Source: Balanoglossus misakiensis (taxonomy: Eukaryota > Animalia > Hemichordata). From it: a stretch of 64,000 nucleotides of DNA. Positions 1-44,200 of the stretch are shown piece by piece (the first letter of the stretch is position 1; the number at the start of each line of letters is the position of its first letter). Below the pieces are notes generated by a model. That model was not told the origin of the DNA and searched no databases. It was given only the letters and a program-made list of their open reading frames with translations. The stretch covers positions 2,250,247 to 2,314,246 of the forward strand of contig CM082594.2 of NCBI GenBank assembly GCA_040954595.2, in the 5' to 3' direction. A program made the translations under genes and the position numbers.

Positions 1-3000
1 ATCTGGTCAAAATTTCAAAAATCTTCTTCTCCAGAACCGGTGATAACCGAGACACGAGGTTTGGGGTATGTGGTCACCTAACTGATGTCTATCAAGTTTG
101 CGAAGATCATTGTGATTAGTCGAAGATTATGGCGGCCATATTGGATTTACGAAAAACCATAGTTAAACTCCAAAAATCTTCTTCTCCAGAACGGGCGATG
201 ACTGAGTTGCAAGATTCGGGGAGTATGGTCACTACACTGATGTCTATCAAGTTTGCAAAGAGCATTGTGATTGGTCGAAGATTATGGCGGCCATATTGGA
301 TTTTGTAAAAAGCAGTGAAAATTTGAAATTCCTTTTTCTAGTCTAAAATTTGATAGCATACAAATTGTTTTTATGGATATCAATCGTCATGTGACTAAAA
401 TATGTTACAATTTTTTTGTGATTTTTCACATGACCTTTGACCTACTTATCACGCGTTATTATTTCTGCATATCTAATTCCAGGCTAACCTATAGGGCTAG
501 ACGTTTGGTTTTTGATGAATGTGAATTAGTGTGTGATCAAAATATTTTGCTACTTTTCATGACCCCTTTGACCTCAGCTGACCTCATTAATTATGTACAT
601 AGCTAATTACAGGCGAACCAATAGAGCTAGAGGTTTTGTTTTTGTTGGACATGGACCAGTATGGGATCAAATTTTTTTGCCCAAATGTTGGGTGACCTCT
701 GGTGACCTTTGACCTACTTTCTCATATCTCAGCATCCAGAGCAGATACAGCCATTGCATTTGGTAGGATGGGACCAAAATGTAAAGCCAAATTTTTGGGT
801 CACCTGTGACACCTGCTGACCTCATTAAATATGCACATACCTAATTACAGGTGAACCAATAGAGCTAGAGTTTTGGTTTTTATTGGACATGGACCAGTAT
901 GGGTAAAAAAAAAATTGCCCAAATGTTGGGTGACCTCAGGTGACCTTTGACCTACTTCACCCTATTTCAGCAGCAAAAATACCCACATCCTTGTTATGTC
1001 ATGAGATAATACATCCGATAGAAAATTCTGTTTCTTCTAATTCATACTGTGCATATATAATTCAAGATCAGCGCTTGGGCCCGACAATGCTGCTCGCAGC
1101 TTTAATTCTTTCTTTATTCTTGTGTCATTTCTTTGTCGCTCTAGATCTCAGACACCGCTGCAGGTACACTTCTCAAACTTGCTACAGTGGTCAAGGTCAA
1201 TGGGTAGTCGTGCATTGAACTCTTGAATTTTTAATTAGTCACGTGACATGGCGGCCATATTGGATTTTCTGAAAAAATGCAAATCTCAGATCTCAGAAAC
1301 TACAAGTCAGATCGACTTCAAATTTGGTGTGCAGGTAGTCTACCTTTTACCCATCATTTTTGTAATTGGATATTTTGCTGTAAATGTTGCAGTTTTTTTG
1401 CTACAATTTTTTTTCTGAAATCTGGCTTAAATTTCAAAAATCTTCTTCTCCAGAACCGGTGATAACCGAGTGACGCGGTTTGGGGTATGTGGTCACCTAA
1501 CTGATGTCTATCAAGTTTGATAAGAAGCATTGTGATTGGTCGAAGATTATGGCGGCCATATTGGATTTTCGAAAAACCATAGTAAAACTGCAGAAATCTT
1601 CTTCTCCAGAACGGGCGATAACTGAGTCGCAAGATTCAGGGAGTATGGTCACAACACTGATGTCTATCAAGTTTGCAAAGAGCATTGTGATTGGTTGAAG
1701 ATTATGGCGGCCATATTTGATTTTGTAAAAAGCAGTGAAAAATTGAAATTCCTTTTCCTAGTCTAAAAATTGACAGCATACAAATTCTTTTCATGGATAT
1801 CAATCATCATATGACTAAAATATGTTACAAATTTTTGGCGATTTTTCACATGACCTTTGACCTACTTATCATGCGTTATTATTTCTGCATATCTAATTCC
1901 AGGCTAACCTATAGGGCTAGACTTTTGGTTTTTGATGCATGTGGATTAGTGTGTGATCAAAATATTTTGCTACTTTTCATGACCCCTTTGACCTCTGCTG
2001 ACCTCATTAATTATGTACATAGCTAATTACAGGCGAACCAATAGAGCTAGAGGTTTGGTTTTTGTTGGACATGGACCAGTATGGGATCAAAATTTTTTGC
2101 CCAAATGTTGGGCGACCTCTGGTGACCTTTGACCTACTTTCGCATATCTCAGCATCTAGAGCAGATACAGCCATGGCATTTTGTAGGATGGGACCAGAAT
2201 GTAAAGCCACATTTTTGGGTCACCTGTGACACCTGCTGACCTCATTAAATATGCACATACCTGATTACATCCGAACCAAAAGAGCTAGAGTTTTGGTTTT
2301 TGTTGGACATGGACCAGTATGGGTAAAAAAAAATTGCCCAAATGTTGGGTGACCTTATGTGACCTTTGACCTACTTCACCCTATTTCAGCAGCAAAAATA
2401 CACACATCCTTGTTATGTCATGAGATAATACATCCGATAGAAAATTCTGTTTCTTCTCATTCATACTGTGCATATATAATTCAAGATCAGCGCTTGGGCC
2501 CGACAATGCTGCTCGCAGCTTTAATTCTTTCTTTCTTTCTTTATTCTTGGTTCACTTCTTTGTCGCTCTAGATCTCAGACACCACTGCAGGTACAGTTTT
2601 CAAACTTGCTACAGTGGTCAAGGTCAATGAGTAGTCGTGCATTGAACCCTTGAATTTTTAATTAGTCACGTGACCTGGCGGCCATATTGGATTTTCTGAA
2701 AAAATGGAAATCTCAGATCTCAGAAACTACAAGTCAGATCGACTTCAAATTTGGCATGCAGGTAGACTACCTTCTACCGATCATTTTTGTAATTGGATAT
2801 TTTGCTGTAAATGTTGCAGTTTTTTTGCTACAATTTTTTTTCTGAAATCTGGCTTAAATTTCAAAAATCTTCTTCTCCAGAACCGGTGATAACTGAGTGA
2901 CGCGGTTTGGGGTATGTGGTCACCTAACTGATGTCTATCAAGTTTGATAAGAAGCATTGTGATTGGTCGGAGATTATGGCGGCCATATTGGATTTTCGAA

Positions 3001-3953
3001 AAACCATAGTAAAACTCCAAAAATCTTCTTCTCCAGAACGACCGATGACTGAGTCGCAAGATTCGGGGAGTATGGTCACTACACTGATGTCTATCAAGTT
3101 TGCAAAGAGCATTGTGATTGGTCGAAGATTATGGCGGCCATATTGGATTTTGTAAAAAGCAGTGAAAAATTGAAATTCCTTTTTCTAGTCTAAAAATTGA
3201 TAGCATACAAATTCTTTTTATGGATATCAGTCGTCATGTGACTAAAATATGCTACAATTTTTTGGCGATTTTTCACATGACCTTTGACCTACTTATCATG
3301 CGTTATTATTTCTGCATATCTAATTCCAGGCTAACCTATAGGGCTAGAGGTTTGGTTTTTGATGAATGTGGATTAGTGTGTGATCAAAATATTTTTCTAC
3401 TTTTCATGACCCCTTTGACCTCTGCTGACCTCATTAATTATGTGCATAGCTAATTTCAGGCGAACCAATAGAGCTAGAGGTTTGATTTTTGTTGGACATG
3501 GACCAGTATGGGATCAAAATTTTTGCCCAAATTTTGGGTGACCTCTGGTGACCTTTGACCTACTTTCGCATATCTCAGCATCCAGAGCAGATACAGCCAT
3601 GGCATTTGGCAGGATGGGACCAAAATGTAAAGCCACATTTTTTGGTCACCTGTTACACCTGCTGACCTCATTAAATATGCACATACCTAATTACAGGCGA
3701 ACCAATAGAGCTAGAGTTTTGGTTTTTGTTGGACATGGACCAGTATGGGTAAAAAAAAAATTGCCCAAATGTTGGGTGACCTCAGGTGACCTTTGACCTA
3801 CTTCACCCTATTTCAGCAGCAAAAATACATACGTCCTTGTTATGTCATGAGATAGTACACTCGATAGAAAATTCTATTTCTTCTCATTCATACTGTGCAT
3901 ATATAATTCGAGATCAGCGCTTGGGCCCGACAATGCTGCTTGCAGCTTTAATT
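1..3953 (+). mobile_element. Head-to-tail tandem array of a ~1.42-kb non-autonomous Helentron/HINE-like element (partial unit 1-1107, units 1108-2526 and 2527-3953)
   Basis: Near-identical units: atggatat recurs at 373, 1793 and 3220. Each unit ends CTTGGGCCCgacaatGCTGCTyGCAGCtttaatt (subterminal repeat plus short hairpin). Internal ~155-bp and ~240-bp subrepeats are rich in tgacctttgacct. Closely similar 3' ends occur at 15283-15316 and 20321-20355. The superfamily is inferred from end structure only. Confidence 0.75.
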
Positions 3954-5303
3954 GTTTATTTGGGAGTGGTCGTCGTGCATAATGACTGTGTAATTGCTCT
4001 CATGTACACAGAAAATAATTGAACACTTTACACTTCCACGCGATTGACAACTGTTTGAATGGCGTGGTTATTGTTTCCCAGGGACGCTTCTGAAAAGCAC
4101 TGAAACCAGATTTCTCCCAAAATCATCGTTGTTTCAAAAGCTCGTGTACTTTTTCGTCGATAACTTTATGTTGTGTGTGTTTATAAAGCCAACTACTGTC
4201 GTTGTGTGGTGTAATTCTTTATGCTTGGACCTGTTTGGGCCGATTTTCATAGAGCCAAGATCGTTGGTGTTGTCTGTTGTCAGTCAAACGGCATTAAGAT
4301 TCGCCACTGATTTGGGGGGTCTTTTATACCCCGCACCGGGGTTTAAGATTCGCCAATGATTTGGTGGGTCTTTTATACCCCGCACCGGGGTTTAAGATTC
4401 GCCACTGATTTGGGGGGTCTTTTATACCCCGCACCGGGGTTTAACCACAGACAAAGAGAAAAACAGACTAGCAAAGCTATTGTCAAAAGGTGTGAAGTAC
4501 ATCTCCTAATCCCCCTATGCGTGTCTCAGCTCGCCTTCAAGGTGCAGCTTGTCTCCGAAGATTTCCGAACGTGTCCACTTCGGCAATGTCCGGAATTTTC
4601 CCGATAATAAAACGAAAGTGTTTTGGTGAAAGTTCGTGTTGTCGTTTTCAGTCAGCTGTAGACGGAAGGCGAGTGGACAGTGAAAATTGGAGGAAGTTTG
4701 AGCATCAGAGCGATGAGTTTTACCATTTAACAAAAACTTATCAATATATAATAAGTGTGTTTGATCGTAAATTTGAAAAGGTTCAATCATCAATCTCGAT
4801 TTTTTGGAATGGATTCCTGTTCGCTGAATCGTGTTCTGTAAACTTGCATGGGTTGTAGATGCAAATTTTACTTCTAACGTGTAAATCAAGTGTAAATCGT
4901 GGTCGTCCATAAACCCCGGTGCGGGGTATAAAAGACCCCCCAAATCAGTGGCGAATCTTAATGCCGTTTGACTGACAACAGACAACACCAATGATCTTAG
5001 CTCTATGAAAATCGGCCCAAACAGGTCCAAGCATAAAGAATTACACCACACAACGACAGTAGTTGGCTTTATAAACACACACAACATAAAGTTATCGACG
5101 AAAAAGTACACGAGCTTTTGAAACAACGATGATTTTGGGAGAAATCTGGTTTCAGTGCTTTTCAGAAGCGTCCCTGGGAAACAATAACCACGCCATTCAA
5201 ACAGTTGTCAATCGCGTGGAAGTGTAAAGTGTTCAATTATTTTCTGTGTACATGAGAGCAATTACACAGTCATTATGCACGACGACCACTCCCAAATAAA
5301 CAA
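3952..5303. repeat. 394-bp near-perfect inverted repeat (arms 3952-4345 and 4910-5303, 564-bp spacer)
   Basis: ttgtttatttgggagtggtc...ccccgcaccggggttta is the reverse complement of taaaccccggtgcgggg...ccactcccaaataaacaa, with about 2 mismatches seen. This explains the near-identical ORFs 4129(+) and 5126(-). Confidence 0.95.
4294..4444 (+). repeat. Three tandem copies of a 49-bp unit, each junction being TTAA
   Basis: ttaagattcgccactgatttggggggtcttttataccccgcaccggggt starts at 4294, 4343 and 4392, with a closing ttaa at 4441. Confidence 0.95.
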
Positions 5304-5946
5304 CTATACAAACACACGTTAATCCGAACCCCGGTAATTTCCGCACAGGGGGTTAAAGTAGTGTTTCAGTCGAGTCCTGAATGCAAAGCTGTGTCAGGCA
5401 AGGTACTGCAGCTGTCGATAATGACGCAACCGCAAAGTATTCTGGGAAGTCTCCGCGGTGTCTAACCCATTTGACACATTTGAAACCTATTGTTTGCCGT
5501 TGTTTGCCGAGGTGGACAAGACATCAAAGTGACATGCCGCGTTGCTAGTCTGTTTTTTCTCTTTGTCTGTGGGTTAACGGTCATCACCTTGGGACTTCGC
5601 TGAACCTTGGAAGCGTCAAACCACTCCAGATTTCTGGTCCTAAAACTGCACCCTTGTCGGTTCAAATACCAACTAGTCGGTTGTACATGTATTCTGGATT
5701 GTTTTCTTCTGAAGGCTTCATAACATGTGGAGTGGTGTTTTCCCCCCACAAGTGCCACACTCTGTTCGTTGTCAGTATATGGTTTCAGTGGTTCAATGAG
5801 TTTGAAGAACTTCACTGATAAATTACCAGACTCATCATACAGTTCAGAGTCAACTGCATGCTGATTCTGACATCAAACATGTGAAAAAAAACTTCTGGAA
5901 AAATATTTGCACATGACCAATGAAGACATTCAAAATGCAACCTCAC

Positions 5947-8900: not shown

Positions 8901-11900
8901 AATTTTCATCCAATGTGTGCTTATTCTCCGGAAGAAATACCTTTAATGAAAAAAAAAATGTTTTATACAGGGGAAAATTATTTCACCATCCTGACGTCTG
9001 CACCTGTTCAAATGTTTCTTTTTTTATCAACAGTAACATTTCTCACAATTATTCAGTGCATTTTACAGTAAAACATAGCATCAAGAAACATTTCTTCTCA
9101 CACTCCTGGCACGCTGGGAGTGAGGGATCGGAGTGTGAGAACAAATCAATCCCACACTCTCACTGAATCAAAAGCTGTATATGACGTGAACACTGATTGG
9201 TTGACAAAGCGTCTTTTTCCAATGGCGTGATGTGTATCATAGGGACAGAGACTACAACGTGCCAAGACGACAGTTCCAGAGTCATTTATTCAATTTGGCT
9301 AATTTGTGATCGTGTGAGAAATATCATCTCACACACCAAGGACCTGGGAAAGTATTTCTCACACTCGTCGAGGATATTCTGTCCCACACTCGCCTGCGGC
9401 TCGTGTGGGACAAAAAATCCCCAACTCTTGTGTGAAATAAGATCCCAGGTCCTTGGGATTCTATTAGTCCTATTTGGGGATTGCACAGAAGTAATTCTAT
9501 ATCAGAAGTAGCTACCTAGCAGCTAACACAGCTCCACTGCGATACTTTACATTATAAACAAGAAAATTTCTTCAGAATTAAATGGCACACAGAGTCTGAC
9601 AAACTTGTCAGCACAGCTAAAAAGGCAAATTTGTGAAGCCATCAAAATATAGTAATAAAAATTTGTCGCAATTTCAACAAAACAAACTTAGAAAATAAGA
9701 TCACCCAGGAGAGCTTAACACCACAGTTCAAAACAACTAGACACATGCATTTTTAGGGGCCCATGCCTATCAGGCCAGCTACATGTGGAAAACACGCAGC
9801 ATCTACCGGGCGGAAACTTGGTACGGTGATAGGGGCCAAAATGCACTGAATTAATGTTGTTAAGTTAGAAAATTTACCTGAGCTGTATCTATGGCCATAT
9901 TGAAGTCTCCAAGTAACCTTGGAAGGACAAATCTGGAACTGCATATTCGTTGTATAGATTTTCCTGTCACAGCTTGAAACTCTGATATTTCCTCATCCTT
10001 CAGGTCTGTAGACTTCTGCAAAGTACACAGAATGAGAATGCTATCAACAGCAAATACACATCACTCACATTTTCCAATGTCACAAGCGTTAACAGGTATT
10101 TACGGGACCAAGGCCTGCAGCTGTACTGTTATTCTTTTCTTCGCATGTCCGAGTCAATTTTTTGAGATCCCAATACCCACTGCACCTACATTTCTCAAAA
10201 CATGGCAGAATGGTCGGGGCCGATGAGTTGTCATGAAATGTTTAATTACCACGACTAAATTAAACAAATGGCTTCTTATCAAATACTACATTGCAAATCA
10301 ACTTGAAATTTAGTGCATGGCAAACATGCCATCTCTCCTTCAAAATTTGCCGAAAAAATTATGAGCATGAGTCATGTGACCTTGGCTGCCACATTGGAAT
10401 TACATGTATAATAAATCTCATTAAACTTCAAACATCTTCTTGAGATTTGGTGTAAATGGTCACCAAAACTGATGTCTATCAAGCTTGTGTAAGGGCATTG
10501 TGTTTGGTCGCCCCTAATGTCGGCCATATTGGATTTTTCTAAAATGATTGAAAAATGAGAACATGCTTTAACATTTTTGCGTATCATTTTCATTGTCAGC
10601 TAAAATCACAATATGGTCTACCCATGACAAGATGTCAATAATTGTCATAAGCATTAATTATACTGCATATGTCTTTGAGTTCTACTACCCAGTCATTAAT
10701 AAGCAAAGAAAAAGAAGGGTAAAAGGCTATTACCTTGTCTGTACCTTGGATAGTGGGAAACCAATCTCTTTTATTTAAAACTTATAAAAGATATTGGTTA
10801 ACTTATAAAAGACACAGCTTATAAATTATAAGCTATGTCTGTAGATTTCTCGTGTAGTTTTGTACATTTTTATCTAGTCCGCTTGACCAATGAAAACTTT
10901 TCTTACAGAATAAAATGTTTTTTGAAAATTAATATTCAATTGTTCATTGCAATTATAACGGTTTGTTGTCACCAAAACACCGAACACCTTTGAAAGCCGT
11001 GTGGCATGGTCCTATCTTTTTTCCAACTGACTCCTCTTCTTTACTTGTTCAATGAATTCAGATGTTTTTCGAGGACTTGGAGCAAAATACATCATTTTTC
11101 TTGATGGTAGTTGGGGGCAATTTTTCCTGATAGTCTTAGCTAGGTGGCAGTTTTTAGAATGCTTGTCTGACAGGAGAACAGTTCAAAATATGTCGACCTG
11201 TAATTCCTTGTTGTATGTATCACTCACTATCAGGGCCAAACTGACACACACCATATGACAACACATTGGTGATTCACAACACAAATTACACACAAGGTGT
11301 GTTATAATATAGAAATAATGGACGACGCCCTGACCATAAACAAACATGGGCAAGGGCGAGGGGAAAGCCAAAAAATTCATGGACGAGGCTTCCGAGCCCA
11401 TGAATTTTGAATTTTGGCTTTCCTTGAGCCCGAGCCCATAAACAAAGTAACGTTAATGGTCAGGGCGGAGTTGGTTATTTCCATTGTATTACAAACCAAC
11501 CCAAGAAAACCGTCAAAATTTACGAAAATGTCCCACGCAAAAGACTAGGGGCCCCGGAACTTGTGTTACGTAAAATGTTGTATTCACTGAACTGTTTGTT
11601 AAAATTACTATTCAGATTTACGGGCATGTAAACAAACCATTACTGAGTATTTGTGGTCAGTGACGTCGTTCATCTCGACCAAATAAAATGCGACGCACAG
11701 GCCATGGTAATATAATATCTCTTGGTGTACCAGTATCATGATATACAATGTACATGTACTGGCTTATCCAGGTAATCTGTTGACAGTTAAACCAGTACGC
11801 ATAGGAAGGGACATTGTTCATGTTAATACTAAGGTCTCAACATTTCCAGCCATACAAACTGACAAAGATCTAAGGAAAGGGACTCAAAGTTTGAAATAAA

Positions 11901-14900
11901 ATAAAAATTCCCAAATCTGGCTTAAAACTGAGATTTTGTTCTCAAATCAACTCCCAGGAACTTGCTTATCAAACGTGTGATCAGCAGTTTCTGACAAAAA
12001 TAGTTACAGAACCTTGTGTTGCTGACATTGACAACAGAGCTAACAAAATCATAAATACCCACCGACAAGATGAAGTCTTCTTGGTTCTTCAATGACCAAT
12101 CATGCACAGTTTTCTCTAAATAATTCCAAGAATGTCTTTCACTTCTTCTGTCATTGAAAGACCCCAAATGCCTGGCTTTGCTACCACAAATCATTTGATA
12201 GTTCAGATAGTATTCTTGCTGCAAAATAAAAGAACAAGAATTGTCAGGGACATACAGTGTGCACCATTAAAAGCTAATAGGAGCCTTTTATGCACTACAA
12301 TGTACAAACGATCGCCATACGGTGGCCGAGCATTCTCTCATGCTGCACCGAAACTGTGGAACTCTCTGCCACAAGACATATGCCAAGCTCCAAGTTTGAG
12401 CATCTTTAAGAAGAGACTGAAGACGCATTATTTCGCAAGAGCATATAGTGTGGGCCAATGAGCACAAGCGCCTGAGTATGACACTTGTTATAGATACTGG
12501 CGCTTTACAAATTTCTCACATTGATTGATTGATTGAAAAACACACTTAGAAATAAGGCTTGGTATGATATGACACAGTTTACAACAGAAAAGCATGCTAT
12601 GTAAGAGAAACCCTATAAAGAAATACCCAATGTTGATATTGCCACTTCTCTTGGCAGAATTTTATGTGGTATATGTACAACTGATCACAGGCACTCTATC
12701 ACTCATTGGGTGGCAGTGTGTTGATTTATGTAATTAATTGTATACATTACATGTATTGAATACATTTACATTCTTCACAGTTTTCATATGAATGATTGTC
12801 AATAATCAAGTGGTCCCCTTTTCCTGTCTATTTTCTTTTCTTTCAAGCTAGGGGCCTATACATTATCCACACCACATCTTCTGAGGCCGAGACTTAACTT
12901 TCTTGGTTGTAACTCCCAAAAAAATAAGTTTTTATGAACGATGATTGTTGGTGATAGGATTTTGCCTAAGTTGGAGAATTCACCTAAAAAAATCAATACA
13001 ATATTTCTTACAAATACAAACTTCTGTCTATGTTTCACTTGTACTGACAGATAATTACCTTGGTAAAGCAATGAGAAGTCATCTTTTTTCGTATATTAAA
13101 GGGACAAAGTCTCTCTCTCACTGCCCTTTTCCCATTAATTGTGTTCGATACAAGACACTGTTTATGTTATTTTACATGTGGATATATAGTGAATCAATGT
13201 TCGCCCACACACACCTTCCATCCTACTTGTAGACACAAGAGTGAAAAACTCGCCAAAATGAATAATGGGTCTTTACCATTTATTCATTTGGCGAGATTTT
13301 TAGGGGACCAAGTGCCCTCAGGCGCTTGGTCCCCTTCTGTTATTGCTGGAGTTTTTCTTCTTTCTTCTTGAGTCGTTTTTTTGCTCCCGTTTTTCTCAAA
13401 ATCGACGTGGCCTAGGACCTTGAAATTTGGCACGGTGATTGGGGTCCATGAGTACTGGTGCACCTGCCCTTTGAATTTGTAATTAGTCACGTGACCTGGT
13501 GGCTATAATCGAGCGAAATTTTCAAATTGACCTTATTTGCACGTTAATGGGGGCATGTACATTCTTTTCGCGATTTTTGTAGACCATGTGGCCAAAATCC
13601 CCTGTGCCAAATTTCAAGGTCCTAGGCCACGTCGATTTTGAGAAGAAGATTTTTGTAATATTTTTCACATTTTTTGGTGGGCTGAGGACGGACACTGGGG
13701 CATCGGACTTTGACCGTCATTACGTAATGTTGTGGAGATCTCATTAGCAGGCTACTCACTTCTGGCGGGTTGCAGTAGTCCTTGGAAAATCGGCTGAAAT
13801 ACGTAAACTGACCAGTGATTATTTTCCACGGAATGAATTTTGGGACAACACATTATCGGAGTTCAGGCTGTGTTAGGGCGTTTTATTGAATTACGCTGAG
13901 TTTGTTAGCTAATGCCGTTCAAATGTTTCTATCCAGACCCGGCTACACAGGTTAACATTCAATGTAATGCGGCAGCGGACTTTGACCCTCAGTCGCTAAT
14001 GTGGCCGAAATACGTCAGCAGACCAGTGATTTTCTTGCACGTAAGGAGTATGGTACCAGCAATAATCAGAGATAAGGCTTCGTTGCCGTTCAAAAGTTCC
14101 TACTTCAGTCGTGACGTTGCAACTGGACGTTCAGTATGGGGGTCGGCCCACAGGTGGCCGTGGGGGTTATCAGGTCGCCCGTAATGGCACGCAGCTTCAT
14201 GCAGCTGTATGGGACCAAAATACTAGTAATACGCCCGATTCGGGGGTCACCTGTGACACCTGTGTAACTCAATTATGTGCGTAATTGTGGGGTCAATGAA
14301 AGGGATGCTAGCGTGGTATTTGTTGCACATGGATCAATTTGAAGTCCGATTTTCCTGTCAAGTTATGGGCGACCTTATGTGACATTTCACCTACTTTTGC
14401 TTAGTGAGCATCCACAGCAGATGCATGCAGCTTTGGCGTTGGGGGTGCGGGGGGCATATACGGATGGGACCATAATGATATACCAAAGGCGGGGTCACCT
14501 GTTGCACCTGCCTAAGTCATTGATTTTGTACATTTAATTGGACACTAACCAACAGGGCAATATGTGTGGTTTTTGTTCCACAGGGACGAATGTAAGTGTC
14601 AGTTTGTTTTTGCCCAAATGTATAAGTTGATTTGGATGACCTTTGTCGTACAGTGCCATATCTCAGCCCGTTGTACAAGTGCAGCTTTGGTATTCGGAGG
14701 GATGAAACTATCATGAAATGTCAAATACAGGGGGATACCTGCGACACCTGCTTGATTCATGTATTACGTGCATACCTAATGGTAGGCAAAGTGAAAGGGC
14801 TGCAAATGTAGGATTTGTTGCACATGACATAAACAGGAATGAAAATTTTTTGTCAAATTTTTGGGTGACCTCAGGTGTCCATTGACCTGCTTTCCATATG

Positions 14901-17900
14901 TTAGCATGCACATCATATATAGCCATGTGTTTGGAGGGGTAGGGTAGGACCCTCTGCGTCATGAAATGCTAAATTCCTGGGGCCACCTGTAACTTACTCG
15001 AGTAACTCATTATTATGGCCATATCTAATTTGACAAACCCAAACAGCGGGGATTTTTCGTTGTCTTGAATATGAACCAAATAAGCTGACCTTTGAAGTAT
15101 ACTTACTGAAGTACTTACAACGTAGAAGTTCACCTTTGGTTGTTGTGTTTGTACTTGTTGTAGGACATGCATTTCGGGTGGTTGCCTACTTCCCCATATC
15201 TCAACATCGAGAGCAAATACATACGGCCTACGCATTTGAATGGTACAACCCTGAATGGAGTCTAATGGTTATTAACTCTATGCTTGGGCCCCTTCAATGC
15301 TGCTTGCAGCTTTAATGTAATTTGGAGTGCAAAATCTGGAAGTGTACCATTTTCTTCTCGCGCCATTGAGGCCCATTCCAAACACACCCCAAACGGCTTA
15401 TTCACATGCACACCCACATTGCACCCTGGTTGTGCTCTGTATGGGATAGTGTCAAATAAAAAGTCAACTGGGTTGGATTTGAAAACTCTTCCTGATTGAG
15501 ATATTTTCCTTTCTTCTTCTTTGGGAGTTCTCTCATCGCCAAGGCTGTGAAGATGCTTGATCGAAAATAAAAAACACGTTAATATCATATCTCTATATTT
15601 ACCTTTCCAATAGAATGTTTAGCTTCGTATGTTCCAGAGTCTTACTCGGCATTTTTAAATGAAATTCATAGAAATACAGAGGAAAGGGCCTGCCTGATTA
15701 TTTGGGCTATACTTAGTACGTATATTGTCGTCATGTTTTTATCAACAGTATGAGTTCGCATTTCTACTTCTAGTAACGAAAAATTTCTAATACCCTCAAA
15801 TTAGATCCAATATTGTCATACTATTTCTATGAAATAAATTTTTATCTGGTTCTTTATGTGCTGCCAATTGTTAATTTCACAAGAAAGAAAGAGCGGGAAC
15901 TAGTGTAGATTACTGACATGTCCTCACTTGCATTACAGAAAACCTCATCCCTCATCTATATTTGGGACAAGGGGACAAGGCCAGACAATGCACAGACACA
16001 CCTAATTTCAAGGTTTTAGCTCTATTTAACTGGGTAACAGGAACAACATTATACTGCTTCCATATGAGGTCAACCATTGATCTGCCATCTTTGAACATCT
16101 TGCTATCGTCATTGCATTTGCTTATAATAATCTTCCTTCGCTCTATATGTAAGTTTTGACAGGTTATACGTGGGATTTGTTGTAAATATTAAGAGAAAAA
16201 CTGACCAAGTGAAAAATTGAACTTGCTTGACAATAGTCTATTCAACAAATGCTCCGAAAATAATTAAATTTTGAAAGGGAATATTTTCTTCATTCTCATA
16301 ATAATGAGATGTAATACCACAGTTTTGAGGTCACGAACCACAGAATAATCTGCAGTACATGCTAGTATGCAAAAATCAACAGCATATGATTTAGCAATTC
16401 TACTTCTGCAAACGAACGATTTGTAATAGCCTTAAATTTAAGTCAATATTGTTATAGTTTGCACAGTAATACATTTAATTCCGGTTCTTTGTGTGCTGCC
16501 AATTGTTAATTTCACAAGCAAGAAAGAGCGGGAACTAGTGCAGATTATTGACATGTTCTCACTTGTATTATAAATACCTCCTGGTTAGTAACCCTGACTA
16601 ACAAGTTTTCAAGATGGCGGATGTGCCTTTCTGCAAAATCACCGTAAATTCATGCTTTGTTGGAATTCAGTTTTGGAATAGCCCAAGCCCGCTTATGATG
16701 ATGGGCTTTTTTGCTTAATTGCCACATGAAGAAGTCTCCAACGTTTTGATTTCAACTGCTACCATTTAAATTACCTGATTCAATTGGTGTGCCTTACATT
16801 ATTACGGGAGTGAAGTGTGGGAATGTAAGCACTCGTAACAGATTGAACAAAAAGTACATAGGCTACCCTAAAGCGGGTTATTATCAAATTATGAAAGTTT
16901 GAAAATACCCGTATGTCAATGCAATGCTAAAGAAACGCGGATCTGTAATTGTAGTTTGGCTGGAGGAGCAACTGGCTAATCCAAAGCCGTTTTTAAGTTT
17001 ATTTTCTCAACGAGGTGCATATAAAGCAGAGTTGTTGGACGGAAAATCTCACTACAGTTGGTGCTCCTGACTGCGAACGAACAGCCAAACGATCAGCAAG
17101 AAGTATGGGTATCGTGATGAAGGCTTCGGTCCTCCTTGCAGTGGCACTTTGTCAGGTAAGTGTAAAATTTGCATGCAGCGCTGGCAACAACTATTTTTTA
17201 ATGTCTCGGTTGCTTTTGAGAGCGTTTGAGTGCGTTAACCGAAGTTCATAATTACGGGTGGTAAACGATTGTCACTGCATGTCCGTTGGCCAATTCACAT
17301 TTTGAAGAAAGTTTCGAATACCGAAACGACAAATATGTAAGGCTGACTTTAATCGTGCAATTATCGTATTTCGGTCGAGCGCCCACCCCGAACTGTCATT
17401 GAAAGTTTCAACTTGAGGTGTAATATCTTCAATTTGAATGCACAAATTTCAAACAGAATTCACGCAGCGTTTTTTCAAACTTGGGGATGAAATCGTTCCC
17501 CCCCCCCCCCCCCCGAAGGTCTGTGAAAACGCAAGTCAGGCGACCACTGCACTGTATCAATATTTCCATTGACTATCTCAAACAGATCTCTGACCGTGTA
17601 TTTTGAACAAATATGAGCCTAAAAAATCATCGCAGTAATTAGTAACCTTTGTCTGTTTTTTTTGCCAGTTTGCCTTTCTTCGTGGATGCGAGTATGGTTA
17701 GTACTAAAATGTTCAGTTTGACACATTTTCATATGTAAATTTAATTTTGTAATGGGCTTGCTGGACACCCATTCAAACGCTCTGGAGGGGCAAGTCCCTC
17801 TAATTCAAAGCGTACACGTATTCTGGTAGAGAGACAAACGTTAACGAGGGATATGAATGGACAATTTTCATGAGCTATATATATATAACCCATGAAAAAC

Positions 17901-20900
17901 GTCCAAAAATGACAGAATGGCCAATATTAGCAATTTCGGGAATTTGTCATTTTTGACAATTTTCAAAATAGGCCTAAATCCCATCGTGCGTTGGGCCTGT
18001 ACTCGTGTCGATATTTCAATATTGACTATTTGGATTTGGAAAGAACTTGATGCAATATGTACGTTTATCAATGCGATGGACATTGTTTTCAACACCAATA
18101 ATATATTCTTAATATATATCACAGGCGTAGGCTGTAACATGGAAGATGGTTTCGCCACACCTGGAAACGACATAAATGACGGATACCAAAACATCAAGAG
18201 CAGTCCAGAAGAATGTTGTGAAGATTGCAAACGCAACAGTCAGTGTCTTGCATGGACTTTCAGAGAAAATACTGGCGAATGCTGGTTAAAGAATCCAATA
18301 CCAGCGAAAATAGTGGATTCAGATGCCGTCATGGGCGTTGTTGATAGATCAGGTAAGGTTCAAAGATCAATCACCTGCAGCTTTGGCCATTTCTTTCATT
18401 ATTCGCGTTCTTTGTATCAACCATGTTTCTTGTTCGGCTCTCTGAATGCGCTATGAGAATCATATTTGAGGGCCATTGAGATGTTATATTCAAAGTTATA
18501 CTTACGCATATTTAACATTGAGATGTTTGTATCTTTCAGGTGTCTAACATAAACTACAGCTGAATACATCATGATTTAGACAAAGACAGTGGAGAGATAT
18601 TTTTGTCAAACGACATGTTGAAATTCATAATAGGTAGTGGTGGGTTGGCATCAAATCTTGATATTGTCCATTATGAACGTAATAAAAATAACTAGCATGG
18701 TATGAAAAGTCTCGAGTCGTTGTATTCTGTAACTCTTTTAACAATATTTCCCGAAATTGTTTATGGTAAAGATACACTGTGGTGCATCCTTTCCTGCATA
18801 TTTGTTGGATTTACGTTTTAATCACGATTAGGGAATTTTCATTTATTATGCGAGGGTGGGTCGGTTGGTCATGTCAAAGGTGACCCCCGGCACATTTCTA
18901 AAATGCGAATGGCAAATGTTGATTGAGGTAATGTACGCCATGCGCTTTCAAGATGATGAATTGGCAACTAATCAGTTCGGACATTAAATACCCATCTTCG
19001 CCTGCATGTTAACAATTGTACATGTCGATCTGCTCGCTATATACAGATGGACAGACAGACAGCTATGCAGGCAGGAGAGAATACGCTTTAGAAAATTCAC
19101 ATTGTGAGCTTACATCAACTCGCCGACCCAACTGTGTGCGAATAGTAGTTGGAAACAATTGGACAATACCGTGATATTTAGAATGTTTCATGAACGACTG
19201 ATTCTTTTAGAGTCTTATCTAGGCCTATATGTGTAACATCTGTTCTGTTCGATTCTCTACCATGACATTATTATAGTTGAAAACACCAACCAAATGTTCT
19301 CTTATGAGCTATTCATATTTGCTTCGAGTATTGTGCTACCTGTATGCTTGAATTATCTGTGCGTCTGCTCTCCCCTGTTAACATTCAGTTTAAAACCATT
19401 TATCGTTGCAAATGAAGTCGCACGCAAAATGTTAATAGGTAAATTCAAGTATTCGACTTATCCCAAACATTTTCCAGTGCTAGGTGTTCATAATATACGA
19501 CGTCATACAAAGGATCTTCAAGGTCGCAGGTATTATTGAATGACCAACACAAATGAGAAAACATTAGTTACCAGGCTATTAAATGAAAATATACCTTTCT
19601 ATGCAGTATATGAAATTGCCTGTACGTGTCTCATCATGCACTTGTTGTAATTGTAGGGGCACGTTTTAGCTACAGTGAATCTTTAGTTTAAATTGTGTTT
19701 ATTTTTTTACCTCTGACGGCATTGTTGAAATGTCGTAGGCCTACTGCTGGTTAAATTACATACCTCTACCTGGTTTAGTGAAGGTATGGGATGCTCATTA
19801 ATTGGTTTTTGCCAACGATACCCTATATAGCAATGCAAGCATTGTGAAATGTCCCGCATTCTGAGTAATATATGAACACGCCTGCTGTGTACATATTTGG
19901 TCAATAGGTATTCCCATAGTGAAACCAGATTTCGTTCGGCAATTCTTGCGATATTGTCCATGGAACCAATATGGTTCAAAACTTTTCGCCCAAATTTTGG
20001 GTGATCTCAGGTGACCATTGACCTACTTTCGCATATCTCAGCATCCAGAGCAGAAACAGCCTTGGCATTTGGCAGGATGAGACCAAAATGAAAAGCCAAA
20101 TTTTGTGACACCTGCTGACCTCATTAAATATACGCATACATAATTACAGGCGATCCAATAGAACTACATGTTTGTTTTTGTTGGACATGGACCGGTAAGG
20201 GGTCAATTATTTCCCCAAATGTTGGGTGACCTCGGGTGACCTTTGACCTACTTTCACAAATCACAGCATCCACAGCATTGATATTTGATGCAATGGATTT
20301 GTCATGATTATCTCTATTTGCTTGGGCCCCTTCAATGCTGCTTGCAGCTTTAATTACTCTTATATTCTACAAACGGAATGGAAGTTGTGTGTGGTCAAAC
20401 GTTGATTCACTATATATTCACATGTAGAGTTGTATGAAATATAGTTAATGGAAAAGGGGCAGCGAGAGAGAGACTTTGTCCCTTTAATAATAATCCTCAC
20501 TCATTTACTAACCTTGTACAAATCTGGGCATATTTGGTGTTCTCTATGAATGAACTTAATACCAAAGCTCTCTATGTACATTTGCAGACAGCAGTCTCGG
20601 ACTTGTTCAATATGCCTCTTTTCTTGCAGACTCATTGACTTGTGAAGTGTTACGTTACTTTCTATGGTTTCACTCTGATACTGTTTGAATTGTTTGGCAC
20701 ACTGGATAAGCTGTTGGCTGAATGATGATGGGATGTCTTCTGGCACAAACAAAGACATCGACTTTGCTGGCCCTGCAGAGAAAAAAATACATGTAGTAAA
20801 CAATAAAAATAGCGCCAAAGGCACTGTGCTCCCATGTCGATGTGGGGGAAGATGCCGGTGTGAATGGGTAGACTGGTAGTGCTTGTAATGAGTGAGTATG

Positions 20901-38200: not shown

Positions 38201-41200
38201 TATCGTCCAGTTGAACAGGTGTTAATCCTGTGTGTCACTTTGAAGCCATATATGCGGGAGTTGACTGATCGTGAAGGAAGCCATTGAACGACAGTTTGTT
38301 ATGCGCAGAAAAGATGCGCAGAACCTAAAACCTGTTCTCAGCCTGCAATATACTCTCAGCGCGCGCGTATCCCCGGCCCGTAGCCCCTACCTACGGGCCA
38401 TAGACTCTGTCAACCATGTAATATCAGGTTTTTTTCTATGTCACGTGCTACGGGTTCAGCCAATCAATAGTACGGAATACAGAGTGAGGTGTAATAAATG
38501 TATATCTCACATCCTGGCATCATTTAGTGACTCTATTCTGTTAATTTGTTTGTTTTAGATGAATCTTCAATTGGTATGGAGTTTGTAGATTTATTATTGA
38601 ATCCGGAACGTTACACTGGGTATAAAGGCTTTTCACCAAGGAGAATCTGGAATACTATCTACCAAGAAAACTGCTTCAAGTAAGGCAATTCAGTCACATA
38701 ACATTTACAGGGACAAAGTCTCTCTCTCGCTGCCCTTTTTTGCATTAATTATGTTTAATTCAAGACACCGTTTATGTCATTCTACATGTGGATATATAGT
38801 GAAATAAAATTCGACCACACACAACTTCCATCATTCTTGTGGGATATCAGAGTAATATCTCGCCAAAATGAAAAAATGGTAAACACCGATTATTAATTTT
38901 GGCGAGTTTTTCACACTTGTGTCTACAAGAGGGATGGAAGTTGTGTGTGGTTGAACGTTGATTCACTATATATCCACATGTAGAATAACATAAACAGTGT
39001 CTTGTATCAAATATAATCAATGGAAAAAAGGGCAGCCAGAGAGAGACTTTGTCCCTTTAATAGAAATAATGTCAACATTGAATAAGCTTGCAATTTAGGC
39101 TTTGGTATTTAGGCCCCATTGACAGAGTCTGGGGTGTTGAAAATTGAGCAATGTACATGCATTTGTTGAGCCATTGCTCAGACATGACTGGATCAGCACT
39201 TAAATGTAAGTTTGCACAGGGGCAATGTCCATTATACTTTATGTTAATTAATTAATATGAAATTTTGGAACTTTTGTTGTTGTTAACTGAATGGGTGTCA
39301 TGCAACTTATTGGAAAAACTGTATTTAATTTCAGACCTGACCCAGAAACCAAATCATATGAAGCTCTCTTGACGTCAAAGACTGTTCAAGGTTGGTTTGA
39401 CTGTAAATTAATTCACTCAAAACATGGCTGCAAAAAGCAAGGCACATGACATTTGCAAATTCTTTGCCACTGATTATCTTGAATTGAATCAACTGGTGAC
39501 ATTAATTTTGCCAACACAGCAAAGACTTCAGAAGTTCAAATGTATGTGTGTATTATTTGCTTATGTTAGCTACATCAGTTATGATCAATTCAGGAAATGA
39601 ATTAGGGGTGTCATAGAATGGTCTAATCATTTAAAAGGAAATAGTCTCTTGTTATTCTCAAATCTCTTGAGCGAGAATTTTTTTCCAGGTAGAATTTTGT
39701 TAGCTAACAATTCTCATTTATGAGAATATGATGATTATTTCCTATCAAACATTTCACCTGAAAAAGATTATATCTGCAACCAAATACCCACGCTTGCCAT
39801 TTATAACCTCTAAATAGAATTGAATGACACATGCAGCCATCCTCAAAGAAATGTTCTCCTTACTAACTTAAAACCTTGTGCTTCCTTCACTTTTCAGGCA
39901 TGTGTTTAGAAAAAAGGGCATTTTATCGGATGATATCAGGACTACACTCCAGTATAAATATTCATCTGTCAGCCAATTATCTACTACCAGGTATTAATCC
40001 CTTTTCAGTTTTATTTAATAGCATCATCTAAATCCTGTCTGTATTAAAAGAGGTCAGATGGGTTGATTGTTGACAAGCTCTGTATTCATCTTTTCATCAA
40101 AAGTTGACTTCTAAAAAAATGTTGGTCACTCAGCTTTGATAATTGGTATGCAGGTCCCCGAGGTTGACTGAGTGAGATTTGATCAAATTGTGTGTCTGTG
40201 ATTTTTTTTTTTTTTTTTTTTTTTTTTTGGGGGGGGGGGAACAATCTTCTCAGAATCAGCTTGCTCATGAAAGACCTGTCAAAGAATACACCACCTCACT
40301 CATGAAGATAACATTCCTTTTGCACAGATCACATACAGAGTTCATGAAGTTCTGTCATACTGTAAAACCTTATTTTCGCGAGTTGAAATTTTCGCAATAT
40401 CGAAAGAGGCCACTGTTCCGCGAGTATTAATTTTCGAGTTCTCTTACATGTATTTCATTCACGCGACTTTTTATTTTCACGCTATTTTGGCTCTCGTGTA
40501 TTTTGCGAAAAATTTATCGCTCGCGAAAATAAAGTTTTTTACAGTAGTATCACAGTAGAGTTGTATGGGCTGTTGTATGGATTACAGTATTCGACAAAAC
40601 AAAACGTCTGCCTATATATAAACGAAAATGGCTGCACGTATGTTGGGGTCCTAATATTGTCTTTGTCATGAAATATATGACTTTCAAAGATGTTTGTTTT
40701 TTACCTGCAGATGCATGGGGTGGAACCAAATGGGGTGTTAATGTAGGAGAGTTTCAGAAACGATTTGATCCTGAGACTACAAATGGAGAAGGACCACAAT
40801 GGCTGAAGAATCTCTATTTTGCCTACCTAGTTGAACTACGTGCTATAAACAAAGCAGCACCATACTTGCAAAATGAAGATTTTTATACAGGTATGTGAAA
40901 AGAAGTCAACTTTGGCAAAAGGGACTCATATACTATTATATTCTGATCATTTAGAAGAATGCCAATGTAAGGATTTGTGCTGTTTGGTATGCTGTTACGT
41001 AAATAGTTGCGTCGTTTGTTCTAATGTTGCAAAATATGGGTGCCAGATTATGTGTATATGGTGTTTATAGTTACCTCAGTACAAATATATGATATGTTTC
41101 AATTTATCAAAACTGCATTGTCATGGTAACAAGGCAATGCTGACACCCATAGACCACTTCACGGATAGGATATCTGCAATGCATGATGGTATAATTTGCG

Positions 41201-44200
41201 TTCAACATAGCGTCTAGTGCATGGCCAATGCATGCGCTCAGAACGCAAACTGTCCCACAACCCCCTGCATTATTCTATCCGCGAAGTGGTCCATACCCCC
41301 CACTGGATCATGGCTACAGAGAAAATTGGTGTGACAAAGTGCCTAAGGGGGATAGCGGTTTGTGCTGGCCCATACACTATACATGTACCATGTCAAATAG
41401 TGTAGTTCATCTTATACAGACAATAAAGAGACCAATGACCAACTGAGTGCATTTCAACTAAACCTTAACATGTATTTTTACCTTTCAAGGCAATATAAAT
41501 GAAGACCGTGAAGTGAAACAACTAGTACAGAATTTGTTGTTGACCATTGGTGAATTTCCTTCTCATTTTAATGAAAGTGAAATGTTCCAAGGAAATTCAA
41601 ACCAGGCACTTCAACTTAAGGTTAGTATTCAATAAGAGAAAGTTGGCTTCAGAACGGAATCAACTTCTAGACTTCTAGTGGTCAATGATATGAGTGACAA
41701 ACTTATTACATTTTTTATTGTCATTTCATTTATTAGTCCCAGTATTAAACTTGAGTGCATGATATTTCCAAAATTTTGAGATTTTTCAACTTCTAATCTT
41801 AACAGTTATTTTTCACTGATGTACTACGAGAACAAGCACGTAATCATGCGATTGTGTGTACATGAAACGGGAACTAAAACAGCTCAATCTCACAGTAACA
41901 CTGTTTCACCGCTTTTAACCTCTGCCCACTTATGATAAAGGTACAAATAAAATAAGCCACATACAATTTTCAATGAACATAATGCACAGGAAGTGACGAC
42001 TTGCCATTGGGTGGGAAGTGAAAATTTGGAAGTCCTTTTACTCCCATATCCGTTTCTGGGTAAATATCCGGTGGTAAACATTTTTACTTCCCAATACAAC
42101 AATCGCAGCTGAATCCAAAGCATTGAATTCACAGTAGTCTGGCTGTTGTTGTTTTTTTCTGTCTGTCTGTCTCTGTCTCCAAGTTGGCAACTTTTGATTG
42201 GCCACAACCATTACATGCAGAGGGGTGGTTCTGTACATGACCTTCTCCATTGATCACAGGGTTTTCCATGACCAGTGCGTTTGATGCAAACCATTTTACA
42301 GTGAGACCTTCTTTGGGCAAGTGAGGGGTGAAAACTCTGATTTTGGGGTATTTAAATTGAAGTCACAACAACAAATATTGTCGTTTTCTCCATCATATCA
42401 GCATTTTTATTAACAGTTTGACATTAACTCCAAAGTATTGAAAGTTGCTGAGCAAAGAACACAAATCATTGGCAAAATGTCATGTTAGGTTTTCCTGGTT
42501 ATTACCGTAAATCTTAGCATAAAAAATCACGATAAAATACAACAAATATGGACAGATACTGTAATAGACTGACAACATCATAGATAGGTACCATTGCATA
42601 CCCTTCCTTATATATGCTTTTCCAGTATAGAGTGTGAATGAGTGGCATAGAAAAAAGTGACTAACTAGACATACCGAATAAGTAACGATATTTATCAGCA
42701 ACATATGTCAAATAATCAATGTTTGAAATTGTGGTTGTGCTTATCTAAAAATTTGACCTAATACCTGTGTATATTTGACGTTATAGTACTAAGACTGTTC
42801 ACTATGCTATACAGAATGTTCACGGAGACAAAGTATGAAATTTGTCTGGTCATAGTCATTCCATACAGAAGTAACTGTTATCTAGGCCACTGCTTTCATA
42901 TCATGTTTAGGGCATTATATTTCCATGTTTAGTTCCCTTTACAGTCTCGTTTTAGCTCCATTATGAAAATTATTTCAGCATGCAAAAATTTAAACATCAG
43001 CCACTCTATTGACTCTGTTCCCTGAGCGGAGACCCATTTTCAGTTTCTTCCAAAACAGTCGTCTCCCTTCCTCATTCTCCACCCAAGTGATGTAATTCTT
43101 TGTCAGTAGAATCTTACGCAAGACGCGTGGCATGACGGCATCTGGGATTTCTTCCAACAGCATGAGAAAGAGGACATCTCTCTTGTCATCAAACAGACAG
43201 TTCTGCGCCATTCTCATCTCAAAATAGCACCACTCACTCTCGGCGAAGTGTGGCGACAGCACCAACATGGTCTTGTGACTGTTCTCGATGCTGTCCAGAA
43301 TGTTCTCGAAAATATCAGCGCCCGGAATGAAATCCCGTTCATGGAGACAGAGTTTCAAATTTGGCGGACCGGCGTTTTCCAAATTGGGCACTAGCTGTTG
43401 CCACACCCAGTCGCTGTCGTGTTCATTGTAACAAACAAATGCATCGTATTTCTTATTCAGTGGTTGATCGTCATCATCGTCGTTGATTTGCAGCTGGTAG
43501 CCGCCACATCTCAGCCTGCCGAGGAAAATCACATAACGTACATGCCATCGTAAACGGATTCCAAGTACAATGCACACAATGACAAACACAGCAACGCAAG
43601 TAATTGGTACTGAAATCTTGAATATCTGATTGCATTCCAAACCCAAATTTAAACTATATACTGGCACATTGTATGGAAATTCACATCTGGGTACTTTCAA
43701 TATTACAACTTCATCCCATTTGGCCCAATCAAGGAATTCTTTCATTTTACACTCTGTACAATCAAGGCCAGTTGAAAATATAATTACTTCTTTCAAATTT
43801 TGCTGACTTTCCAGTAACTCTGTACTTAAAGCTGTGAGTTGGTGATGAAAACCTAAACTAAAGTTGATATACTCTAATTTCTTGGTTGTTGGTAGATCTT
43901 TCAAACTTGTTATACCATCAATATACTCGAGATAAAGGTTTTTCACATTAGGAAACAATGAAAAGAACAAACTTGCATCAAAAGTCATTCCAAAGCGAAC
44001 GTTAGATAGCACTAATGTTTCTATGGTCAGAAACCGGTTTTGTATTTCATGATTCTTGCGTCTGCCTAGCCAACTCGTGATGAACATATTTTCAATTCGT
44101 AGCTTACTGACTCTTAATGAACCTAACTTTTTGGACATGTCTGCAATGTCCACCGTGCCCACTTTGTAATGTTCGTACAGGGCATTGTCAAAGTCTAAGC

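What the first reader, a model, noticed from the sequence alone, without database searches (positions are those of the whole stretch)
13302..20355. A complete four-exon secreted apple-domain gene carried as cargo in a 7-kb composite rolling-circle-type element
Seen: a Kolobok MITE is cut in two at a T run (ggcgagattttt | actcttatattctac; continuous in the intact copy at 51845-52199), so everything between 13302 and 20355 is inserted. The insert starts with a HINE-like 5' hairpin, passes a first 3' terminus at 15283-15316, carries 4.7 kb of other DNA, and ends with a second, matching 3' terminus at 20321-20355, with no TSD. The cargo holds TATA box, four in-phase exons, stop and AATAAA of a 104-aa PAN/apple protein with no visible disablement. 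Known: Helitrons/Helentrons capture host DNA by bypassing a 3' end, but usually carry fragments. Inferred: a whole, possibly expressed, extracellular recognition gene is being copied by a non-autonomous element, a route to gene-family expansion and presence/absence polymorphism.
Basis: partly seen in the sequence, partly recalled or inferred. Interest (0 to 1): 0.88.

Follow-up and report, generated by a model that had tools for sequence, protein, structure and literature searches.

The report
Intact gene moved between Helentron ends
A 7-kb block bounded by the ends of rolling-circle (Helentron-type) transposons splits a smaller transposon inside an intron of what is likely an acorn worm gene and holds an unbroken four-exon gene for a predicted secreted apple-domain protein, which was likely copied there once as transposon cargo; no donor and no second copy of the block was found.

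Summary
Observation confirmed. A Kolobok-type MITE in intron 4 of CMTR2 (best homologues are acorn worms) is split at a T run by a 7,054-bp insert. The insert has one HINE/Helitron2 5' hairpin head, two 3' tails and no target duplication. Between the tails lies an unbroken 104-codon PAN_4/apple gene on the opposite strand. A spliced contig of a diverged two-apple paralogue uses four of its six splice sites, and the differences are mostly synonymous. The gene belongs to a multi-copy family, and its nearest Ptychodera homologues lie on another chromosome-sized sequence than CMTR2, so this copy is derived. Best reading (0.55): one composite rolling-circle event joined a complete HINE's head to a 5'-truncated HINE's tail. 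Not supported: repeated copying or presence/absence. The tail-1/cargo junction and the next 428 bp show flank-like depth in the one individual seen, close paralogues diverge upstream of about 15744, and no donor was found. No transcript specific to this copy was seen. Composite capture and intact-gene capture are known for canonical Helitrons; base-exact cases for HINEs were not found in my searches. The scan held no look-alike, only self-nested HINE stacks in this genome.

The parts
13100..13299 (.). Left part of a Kolobok/T2-type MITE (AGGGA terminus, TTAA at 13096-13099)
   Evidence: 86-88% to three intact copies
13300..15315 (+). Element 1: complete non-autonomous HINE/Helitron2 (head, TTCT-rich stretch, degenerate internal repeats, tail 1)
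   Evidence: high-copy family in reads
13302..13335 (+). 5' subTIR folded into a 15-bp hairpin (head)
   Evidence: -17.8 kcal/mol; exact inverted match
15283..15315 (+). Tail 1: 3' subTIR, palindrome, TTTAA
15316..15743 (.). Segment U: 428 bp at flank-like depth, not shared with the close paralogues; carries a stop-free frame on the minus strand behind an acceptor-like site at 15545
   Evidence: one contig, depth 60.1, over 15428-15743; paralogue contig computed to start at 15744-15754; no homologue
15744..17104 (+). Upstream region shared with close paralogues; 81% direct repeat 15741-15946/16375-16580; TATAAA at 17020-17025; 5' UTR from about 17050
17105..17155 (+). Exon 1, 17 codons, hydrophobic (predicted signal peptide)
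   Evidence: Kyte-Doolittle up to 2.8; donor 17155 used by the paralogue transcript
17669..17696 (+). Exon 2, 28 nt
   Evidence: the paralogue transcript has a similar 31-nt exon in the same place and phase (table 5c)
18125..18352 (+). Exon 3, PAN_4/apple domain
   Evidence: Pfam E=8e-12; model pLDDT 93; apple folds, TM 0.77-0.80
18540..18547 (+). Exon 4 coding part and stop; AATAAA at 18681-18686
18548..19951 (+). 3' UTR and downstream flank shared with close paralogues, some of them rearranged
   Evidence: depth 183-235 and joints 19118>19906, 19739>19819
19952..20353 (+). 5'-truncated HINE piece of a second subfamily, ending in tail 2 (20321-20353)
   Evidence: 82-85% to array units; its subterminal sequence recurs before a tail in 7 contigs (table 7)
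20354..20483 (.). Right part of the MITE (TTAA at 20484-20487)
   Evidence: 81-89% to three intact copies
12255..20515 (-). CMTR2 intron 4, the host intron; flanking exon matches 20773-20516 and 12254-12054
   Evidence: tblastn with the Ptychodera flava protein P0151

Best explanation
An intact apple-domain gene sits inside a 7,054-bp insertion that begins with the head of one HINE and ends with the tail of another, and it was likely copied here in a single composite rolling-circle transposition driven in trans by a Helitron2/Helentron Rep-helicase. Shown: split MITE, T|T site without duplication, one head, two tails, unbroken gene, multi-copy family, spliced paralogue. Inferred: at a donor locus in the apple-gene family, a complete HINE lay upstream and a 5'-truncated HINE downstream of one gene copy, both facing the same way. 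The enzyme treated the outer ends as one element and pasted the copy into the MITE's T run, so the gene arrived with promoter, introns and poly(A) signal. If copying starts at the 3' tail, as Bao and Jurka infer for Helitron2, the headless downstream piece has to run on to the next head and capture is forced. If it starts at the head, tail 1 was bypassed. I favour the first about 60:40; neither is shown. The event looks like a one-off, recent (closest paralogues about 1-2% apart) but older than the split of the two alleles seen. The protein is a predicted secreted one-domain binding module; its ligand (glycan or protein) is untested.
For: Exact rejoining of the MITE in 3 of 3 copies and in the read consensus. 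Both outer ends are canonical HLE2 ends in a T|T site with no TSD (criteria in PMC3627910, and PMC4067079). Bao and Jurka report that only insertions ending exactly at the consensus 5' end lack a TSD, as here. Tail 2 belongs to a real second subfamily (7 contigs, table 7), so it is not just a local copy of tail 1. Both tails share the subTIR, so one transposase could use both. Intron and flank DNA of the gene is 2-3.5 times as deep as the host intron in run X1 (138-235 against 57-71), exon 3 up to about 1,000. The closest Ptychodera apple proteins lie on a 48.2-Mb sequence, CMTR2 on a 44.0-Mb one. Precedent for head-of-one, tail-of-another capture: HelibatN539 (PMC4224331). Helraiser carried a 1.6-kb flank in about 11.7% of events (PMC4778049).
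Against: No donor was seen. Segment U, which a donor should also hold, is covered by one contig at flank-like depth (60.1; 67.6 after a heterozygosity correction, against 64.4 and 77.1 for the flanks). The close paralogues do not have U upstream, so the donor arrangement must be lost, absent from this individual, filtered out of the contigs, or both places are hemizygous. The tool warns that contig depth is no copy number and that records are filtered. No second copy with other flanks was seen. The contig at tail 1 has only 30 letters on the HINE side, one short of the tool's bridging rule, and no listed contig shows the two outer junctions. No autonomous partner could be looked for. HLE2 polarity and read-through have not been shown biochemically in any paper I read.
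Confidence: 0.55

Rival explanations
1. Two rolling-circle steps. Element 1 first inserted alone into the MITE. Later a one-ended product (U, gene and truncated HINE, started from tail 2 and ended without a head) landed in the T run directly behind tail 1.
For: One-ended, 5'-truncated Helitron2 insertions with extra upstream DNA are described (PMC3627910 section 8). HINEs of this genome are reported by earlier, unreviewed notes to land beside their own ends. Tail 1 is followed by a single T, which could be half of a T|T site.
Against: Such one-ended insertions mostly carried 7-19-bp TSDs in that paper, and none flanks U...tail 2 beyond T. The T count then needs 6-7 T in the empty MITE, against 5 in the read consensus. 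It needs a second hit at one base, and it also leaves U without a donor.
Confidence: 0.17
2. Repair or recombination, not transposition, brought the cargo. A lone HINE in the MITE broke near its tail, invaded a related HINE beside the apple gene, copied through it and re-annealed at the second tail; or a circle excised between two tails integrated at this tail.
For: The cargo lies between 36 identical bases, enough for annealing (own knowledge). Yang et al. found DNAREP1/DINE-1 at 7 of 17 new-gene duplicates and favoured homology-dependent recombination (PMC2211543). Joints in paralogues show a family that rearranges often (table 5).
Against: It needs the same donor layout as the best explanation plus a break within the last 36 bases, because sequence left of them is of the second subfamily. 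The 36 bases are the conserved terminal core, 86-91% kept even in the array subfamily, so their identity is expected anyway.
Confidence: 0.18
3. Assembly chimera. The true intron holds only element 1 in the MITE, and the U-gene-HINE stretch belongs to another locus, misjoined through the repeats.
For: It would explain why U shows single-locus depth. No listed contig spans the whole stretch.
Against: It needs two misjoins, one through only 36 shared bases, that leave the MITE exact. Contigs break at high-copy repeats by construction.
Confidence: 0.05
4. The gene was resident in the intron, and two half-MITEs and separate HINEs happen to surround it.
For: HINEs and this MITE family are both abundant in the window.
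Against: The halves are exactly complementary, in one orientation, with TTAA outside both. The nearest homologues in Ptychodera are on another sequence than CMTR2.
Confidence: 0.02

Closest known systems
HINE / DINE-1 non-autonomous Helentrons (Thomas et al. 2014, PMC4067079, passages and section 17 read) and Helitron2 (Bao and Jurka 2013, PMC3627910, passages and section 8 read); HLE2 in PMC11417382 (passages)
   Same: 5' subTIR in a hairpin, 3' subTIR followed by a palindrome, T|T site, no TSD, microsatellite-like stretch and internal repeats, no coding capacity for transposition.
   Different: One head with two tails and 4.6 kb of host DNA holding an unbroken gene. Thomas et al. found gene fragments only in Culex and Phytophthora Helentrons and proposed, without showing it, end bypass or composite transposition for HINEs.
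HelibatN539 composite Helitron of bats (PMC4224331, passages)
   Same: 5' end of one copy and 3' end of another enclose captured host DNA.
   Different: A canonical Helitron1 with a gene region of KCNQ5 and an identified parental locus. Here the ends are HLE2-type, the gene is whole and no donor was found.
Helitron-borne intact genes: maize cases cited in PMC4224331 (originals not read), poplar RR gene (PMC7947767, passages), fungal ToxB-HLE (10.1101/2025.11.13.688278, passages)
   Same: [quoted passage not shown]
   Different: Those are amplified in several copies, in plants or a fungus; ToxB-HLE lacks ATIRs. Here there is one copy, in an animal, with both ends base-exact.
DNAREP1/DINE-1-flanked new genes in Drosophila (Yang et al. 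2008, PMC2211543, passages)
   Same: A dispersed young gene duplicate with HINE-type sequence at both breakpoints.
   Different: There the mechanism was left open between recombination and mobilisation. Here the split MITE shows that the outer breakpoints are the element ends themselves.
PAN_4/apple domains: Ptychodera flava XP_070554976.1 (P0003), factor XI and prekallikrein apples, Sarcocystis lectin SML-2, Toxoplasma MIC4
   Same: 45% identity over 73 residues to P0003; same fold, TM 0.77-0.80.
   Different: A single domain behind a predicted signal peptide; the Ptychodera proteins hold 2 or more domains. Identity to solved structures is 12-22%, so no ligand can be carried over.

Membership tests
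HINE / Helitron2 (HLE2) non-autonomous element | 5' subTIR 0-4 nt from the end, paired into a hairpin | tested here: met
   13302-13335, 2 nt from the 5' end, -17.8 kcal/mol
HINE / Helitron2 (HLE2) non-autonomous element | 3' subTIR complementary to the 5' one, upstream of a short palindrome | tested here: met
   10 of 11 bases at both tails; 22 nt before the end, in Bao and Jurka's 20-30 range but below the 38-60 of mite HINEs
HINE / Helitron2 (HLE2) non-autonomous element | Insertion between T and T with no TSD, shown by an empty site | tested here: met
   paralogous empty sites: 3 of 3 intact MITEs and the read consensus
HINE / Helitron2 (HLE2) non-autonomous element | Autonomous Rep-helicase partner with the same ends (with endonuclease for Helentron proper) | not testable with these tools
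   no genome held; none among the 77 long frames of the window by inspection
Composite / end-bypass gene transduction | Head of one copy and tail of another bound the moved unit | tested here: met
   element 1 complete; tail 2 on a truncated piece of another subfamily
Composite / end-bypass gene transduction | Donor locus with both elements around the same DNA | tested here: inconclusive
   close paralogues exist but lack U upstream; contigs only, one individual
Composite / end-bypass gene transduction | Further copies of the whole block at other sites (a spreading family) | tested here: not met
   tail-1/U contig at flank-like depth; weak, since contig depth is no copy number
Kolobok / T2-MITE (host element) | TTAA target site and AGGRR terminal motif in the TIR | tested here: met
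   TTAA-AGGGA...TCCCT-TTAA; definition in PMC6004289
Kolobok / T2-MITE (host element) | Kolobok transposase partner with the same TIR | not testable with these tools
   no genome held
PAN/apple domain protein | Profile match above the curated cut-off and apple fold | tested here: met
   PAN_4 45.4 bits (cut-off 27), PAN_1 27.2 (21.4)
PAN/apple domain protein | Secretion and ligand binding | not testable with these tools
   hydrophobic N-terminus only; no signal-peptide predictor was run

The most novel reading that the evidence does not exclude
Headless HINE tails act as free-standing replication origins that run on to the next head, so dense HINE fields in acorn-worm genomes routinely lift whole, still-working genes to new chromosomes. 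This locus would be a base-exact proof that HINEs move intact genes, a readout of Helitron2 polarity (start at the 3' tail), and one source of the dispersed apple-gene family.
Probability: 0.2. Interest if true: 0.72.

Novelty: new member of a known kind. Interest (0 to 1): 0.45.

Why it matters
DINE-1/HINE elements have long been seen at the breakpoints of young animal gene duplicates, but whether they move the DNA or only offer homology was left open (PMC2211543, PMC4067079). Here the interrupted MITE fixes both breakpoints to the base, and they are the element's own ends in a T|T site. With the genome and long reads this becomes a direct test of composite HINE transposition. A genome-wide count of one-head/two-tail against two-head/one-tail composites would also test which end starts copying. 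The cargo itself is an ordinary, family-expanded apple module, and spread of this block is not shown.

Tried and rejected
No whole genome is held, so BLAST for a donor, further copies or an autonomous partner was impossible. Exon 3 found no homologue among proteins of 41-132 residues and no solved structure by single-sequence search; the HMMER library search gave 1,535 hits at E<=0.001. No RNA holder was listed among the 5 runs; this is no evidence on expression. X3 is recorded as 'DNA?'; I read it as RNA because it shows spliced joints absent from X1 and X2 and covers 6 of 30 bins. A transcript specific to this copy was not seen in X3: two depth-2 pieces (18481-18542, 18513-18605) include intron sequence and cannot be told from close paralogues or DNA carry-over. 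Runs X4 and X5 (another organism, one sample, small share) cover the MITE and HINE parts but not the cargo; a hole proves nothing. Joints 13289>20354 and 13299>20354 were not taken as an empty allele, since any intact MITE copy gives them. X2 loose ends at 15559 and 15805 fall on GATC and were set aside as likely ligation products; X2 depth is too uneven to use. A nested reading (inner element behind an outer head) was rejected: there is one head only, and no body start follows tail 1. Reading the 36 shared bases as a long TSD was rejected, because tail 2 is its subfamily's own end. The minus-strand frame in U found no family, homologue or Atlas hit; 6-8 of 500 shuffles give such a frame, chosen after the fact, so it stays a candidate exon fragment. 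Earlier findings held no look-alike. Paper searches; 'Ptychodera' with 'apple domain' gave 0 papers.
Full report
1. Setting. The window holds a CMTR2 gene on the minus strand. Its first exon matches best the acorn worms Ptychodera flava (66%), Glandiceps (61%) and Saccoglossus (53%), the top 3 of 896 hits, so the animal is likely an enteropneust. tblastn of the Ptychodera protein gives 11 collinear exon matches from 30246 down to 5947. The finding lies in the intron between the matches at 20773-20516 and 12254-12054. No genome is held.

2. The split MITE. The halves 13100-13299 and 20354-20483, with TTAA outside each, were rejoined by coordinates and aligned with the three intact copies tested. 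They run on without gap or overlap; left 86-88%, right 81-89%, copies among themselves 85-86%. In runs X1 and X2, 121 and 96 contigs leave the window behind 13289 with a consensus that passes 5 T and goes on into the right half (table 7). TTAA and an AGGRR end define T2-MITEs, presumed Kolobok (PMC6004289, passages). With 5 T the insert is 13300-20353, 7,054 bp, in a T|T site with no duplication beyond the T ambiguity.

3. The ends. The head is a 15-bp hairpin at 13302-13335, the only convincing one of 2 candidates in the window. Tails at 15283-15315 and 20321-20353 carry the complementary subTIR (10 of 11) and a palindrome. This is the Helitron2/HINE layout (PMC3627910; PMC4067079; PMC11417382; PMC7492417; all passages). 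Element 1 (13300-15315) is complete and high-copy in reads. The second tail ends a 402-bp piece without a head. It is 82-85% like the array units at 1-3952 and only 77-79% like element 1, in short patches. Its subterminal sequence recurs before a tail in 7 contigs of X1 (table 7). The two tails are identical only over the last 36 bases. So the insert is one head, a whole element, 4.6 kb of host DNA and the stump of a sister subfamily.

4. The cargo gene. The four exons join to 315 nt and 104 codons with GT-AG sites, TATAAA at 17020 and AATAAA at 18681. Exon 3 is PAN_4, folds with pLDDT 93 and matches apple domains of factor XI, prekallikrein, SML-2 and a fungal copper oxidase at TM 0.77-0.80 and 14-20% identity. 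Exon 1 is hydrophobic; secretion is predicted, not tested. Run X3 of the same sample holds a 712-nt contig (depth 247) that covers 17058-17155, 18124-18353 and 18538-18658 with 4, 22 and 6 differences. It has a 31-nt exon in place of exon 2 and 225 extra letters before exon 4. I read it as the spliced transcript of a two-apple paralogue. It confirms four of the six splice sites and a start about 30 bases behind the TATA box. Of its 22 differences in exon 3, 15 were listed: 9 synonymous, 6 not, ratio pN/pS 0.16, P=0.0006; if all 7 unlisted ones were non-synonymous, 0.34, P=0.016. That is purifying selection on the family; most of it may predate this copy.

5. Copy structure. The tool warns that contig depth is no copy number, so what follows is inference from one run (X1) of one individual. 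Host-intron contigs have depth 71.3 and 57.2. The contig 15287-15873 has 60.1 and 4 differences in 587, like the right flank's 4 in 585. From 15876 on, contigs have 138, 155, 235, 220 and 128+55, at 0-2% difference from the window for the main ones and 7% for the last; exon 3 reaches about 1,000. Bin arithmetic puts the start of the paralogue contig at 15744-15754, where an internal direct repeat begins. Hence there are about 2-3 further close loci and many older apple exons, some rearranged (joints 15311>18399, 18256>18381, 19118>19906). The tail-1 junction and the 428-bp segment U appear once. The simplest reading is two alleles of this one insertion; one hemizygous copy here plus one elsewhere fits the same numbers. 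In Ptychodera the three nearest named apple proteins lie on a 48,197,526-bp sequence and CMTR2 on a 44,037,996-bp one; orthology was not tested.

6. Mechanism. One composite event explains every boundary: a head from element 1, a tail from the stump, a T|T site, no TSD. For canonical Helitrons the 5' end is essential, the 3' hairpin stops copying and is read through in about 11.7% of events (PMC4778049, passages), and a head-plus-foreign-tail composite is documented in bats (PMC4224331, passages). For Helitron2, Bao and Jurka infer from 3' overabundance that copying starts at the 3' end, and they saw no TSD only where the copy ended exactly at the consensus 5' end (section 8). Under that polarity a headless tail must run to the next head and tail 1 is no obstacle. 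Chellapan et al. draw the start at the 5' end for Fusarium elements (PMC5148889, passages), so the polarity is open. Against all copy models stands the missing second copy of U. I give one-step composite transposition 0.55, repair or recombination through the tails 0.18, two transposition steps 0.17, assembly chimera 0.05 and resident gene 0.02.

7. What is known. Intact genes in Helitrons are reported for maize (as cited in PMC4224331; originals not read), poplar (PMC7947767, passages) and a fungus (ToxB-HLE preprint, passages). For HINEs, Thomas et al. found few captures and proposed bypass or composite transposition for the DINE-1-flanked Drosophila duplicates (section 17), which Yang et al. 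had leaned to ascribe to recombination. My searches showed no base-exact HINE composite with a whole gene in an animal. The library lacks most subscription papers, so this is not proof of absence.

8. Verdict. The feature is real and well read by the first stage. It is a clean new case of a known kind, useful because the MITE fixes the breakpoints. The claim of ongoing spread and presence/absence is not borne out by the reads in hand, and expression of this very copy is unproven. Interest 0.45.

Noticed in passing
window 1-3952: About three 1.42-kb HINE bodies head to tail, each ending in a tail (1073-1106, 2492-2526, 3919-3953) with no head between them; fits the closing half of a self-nested stack whose heads would lie left of the window, as earlier notes describe elsewhere in this genome.
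   Followed up: partly
window 3949-4345 and 4910-5306: 397-nt inverted repeat, 99% complementary, 564 nt apart, directly behind the last array tail; likely a young TIR element.
   Followed up: no
window 15319-15544, minus strand: Stop-free frame behind a pyrimidine tract and CAG, cut by tail 1; possibly an exon fragment of a neighbour of the donor gene; no homologue found.
   Followed up: yes
window 18399 (intron 3), in paralogues only: A contig joins a HINE tail to position 18399 (X1 depth 112.5), so close paralogues carry another HINE end in intron 3.
   Followed up: partly
window 17860-17960: Short high-copy palindromic repeat in intron 2 of the apple gene.
   Followed up: no
window 42990-45980, minus strand: Single 996-codon frame with leucine-rich repeats and a TIR-like end, Toll-like receptor by eye (name recalled, not scanned).
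   Followed up: no
window 55424-57646, plus strand: Unbroken 740-codon frame that looks like a hAT-type transposase (name recalled), between inverted repeats at 54815-55008 and 59162-59354.
   Followed up: no
window 40548-40898 and 60807-61175, plus strand: An ERO1 exon and a THAP domain frame.
   Followed up: no
window 9751-10700: Degenerate HINE-like heads and body pieces in other CMTR2 introns.
   Followed up: no
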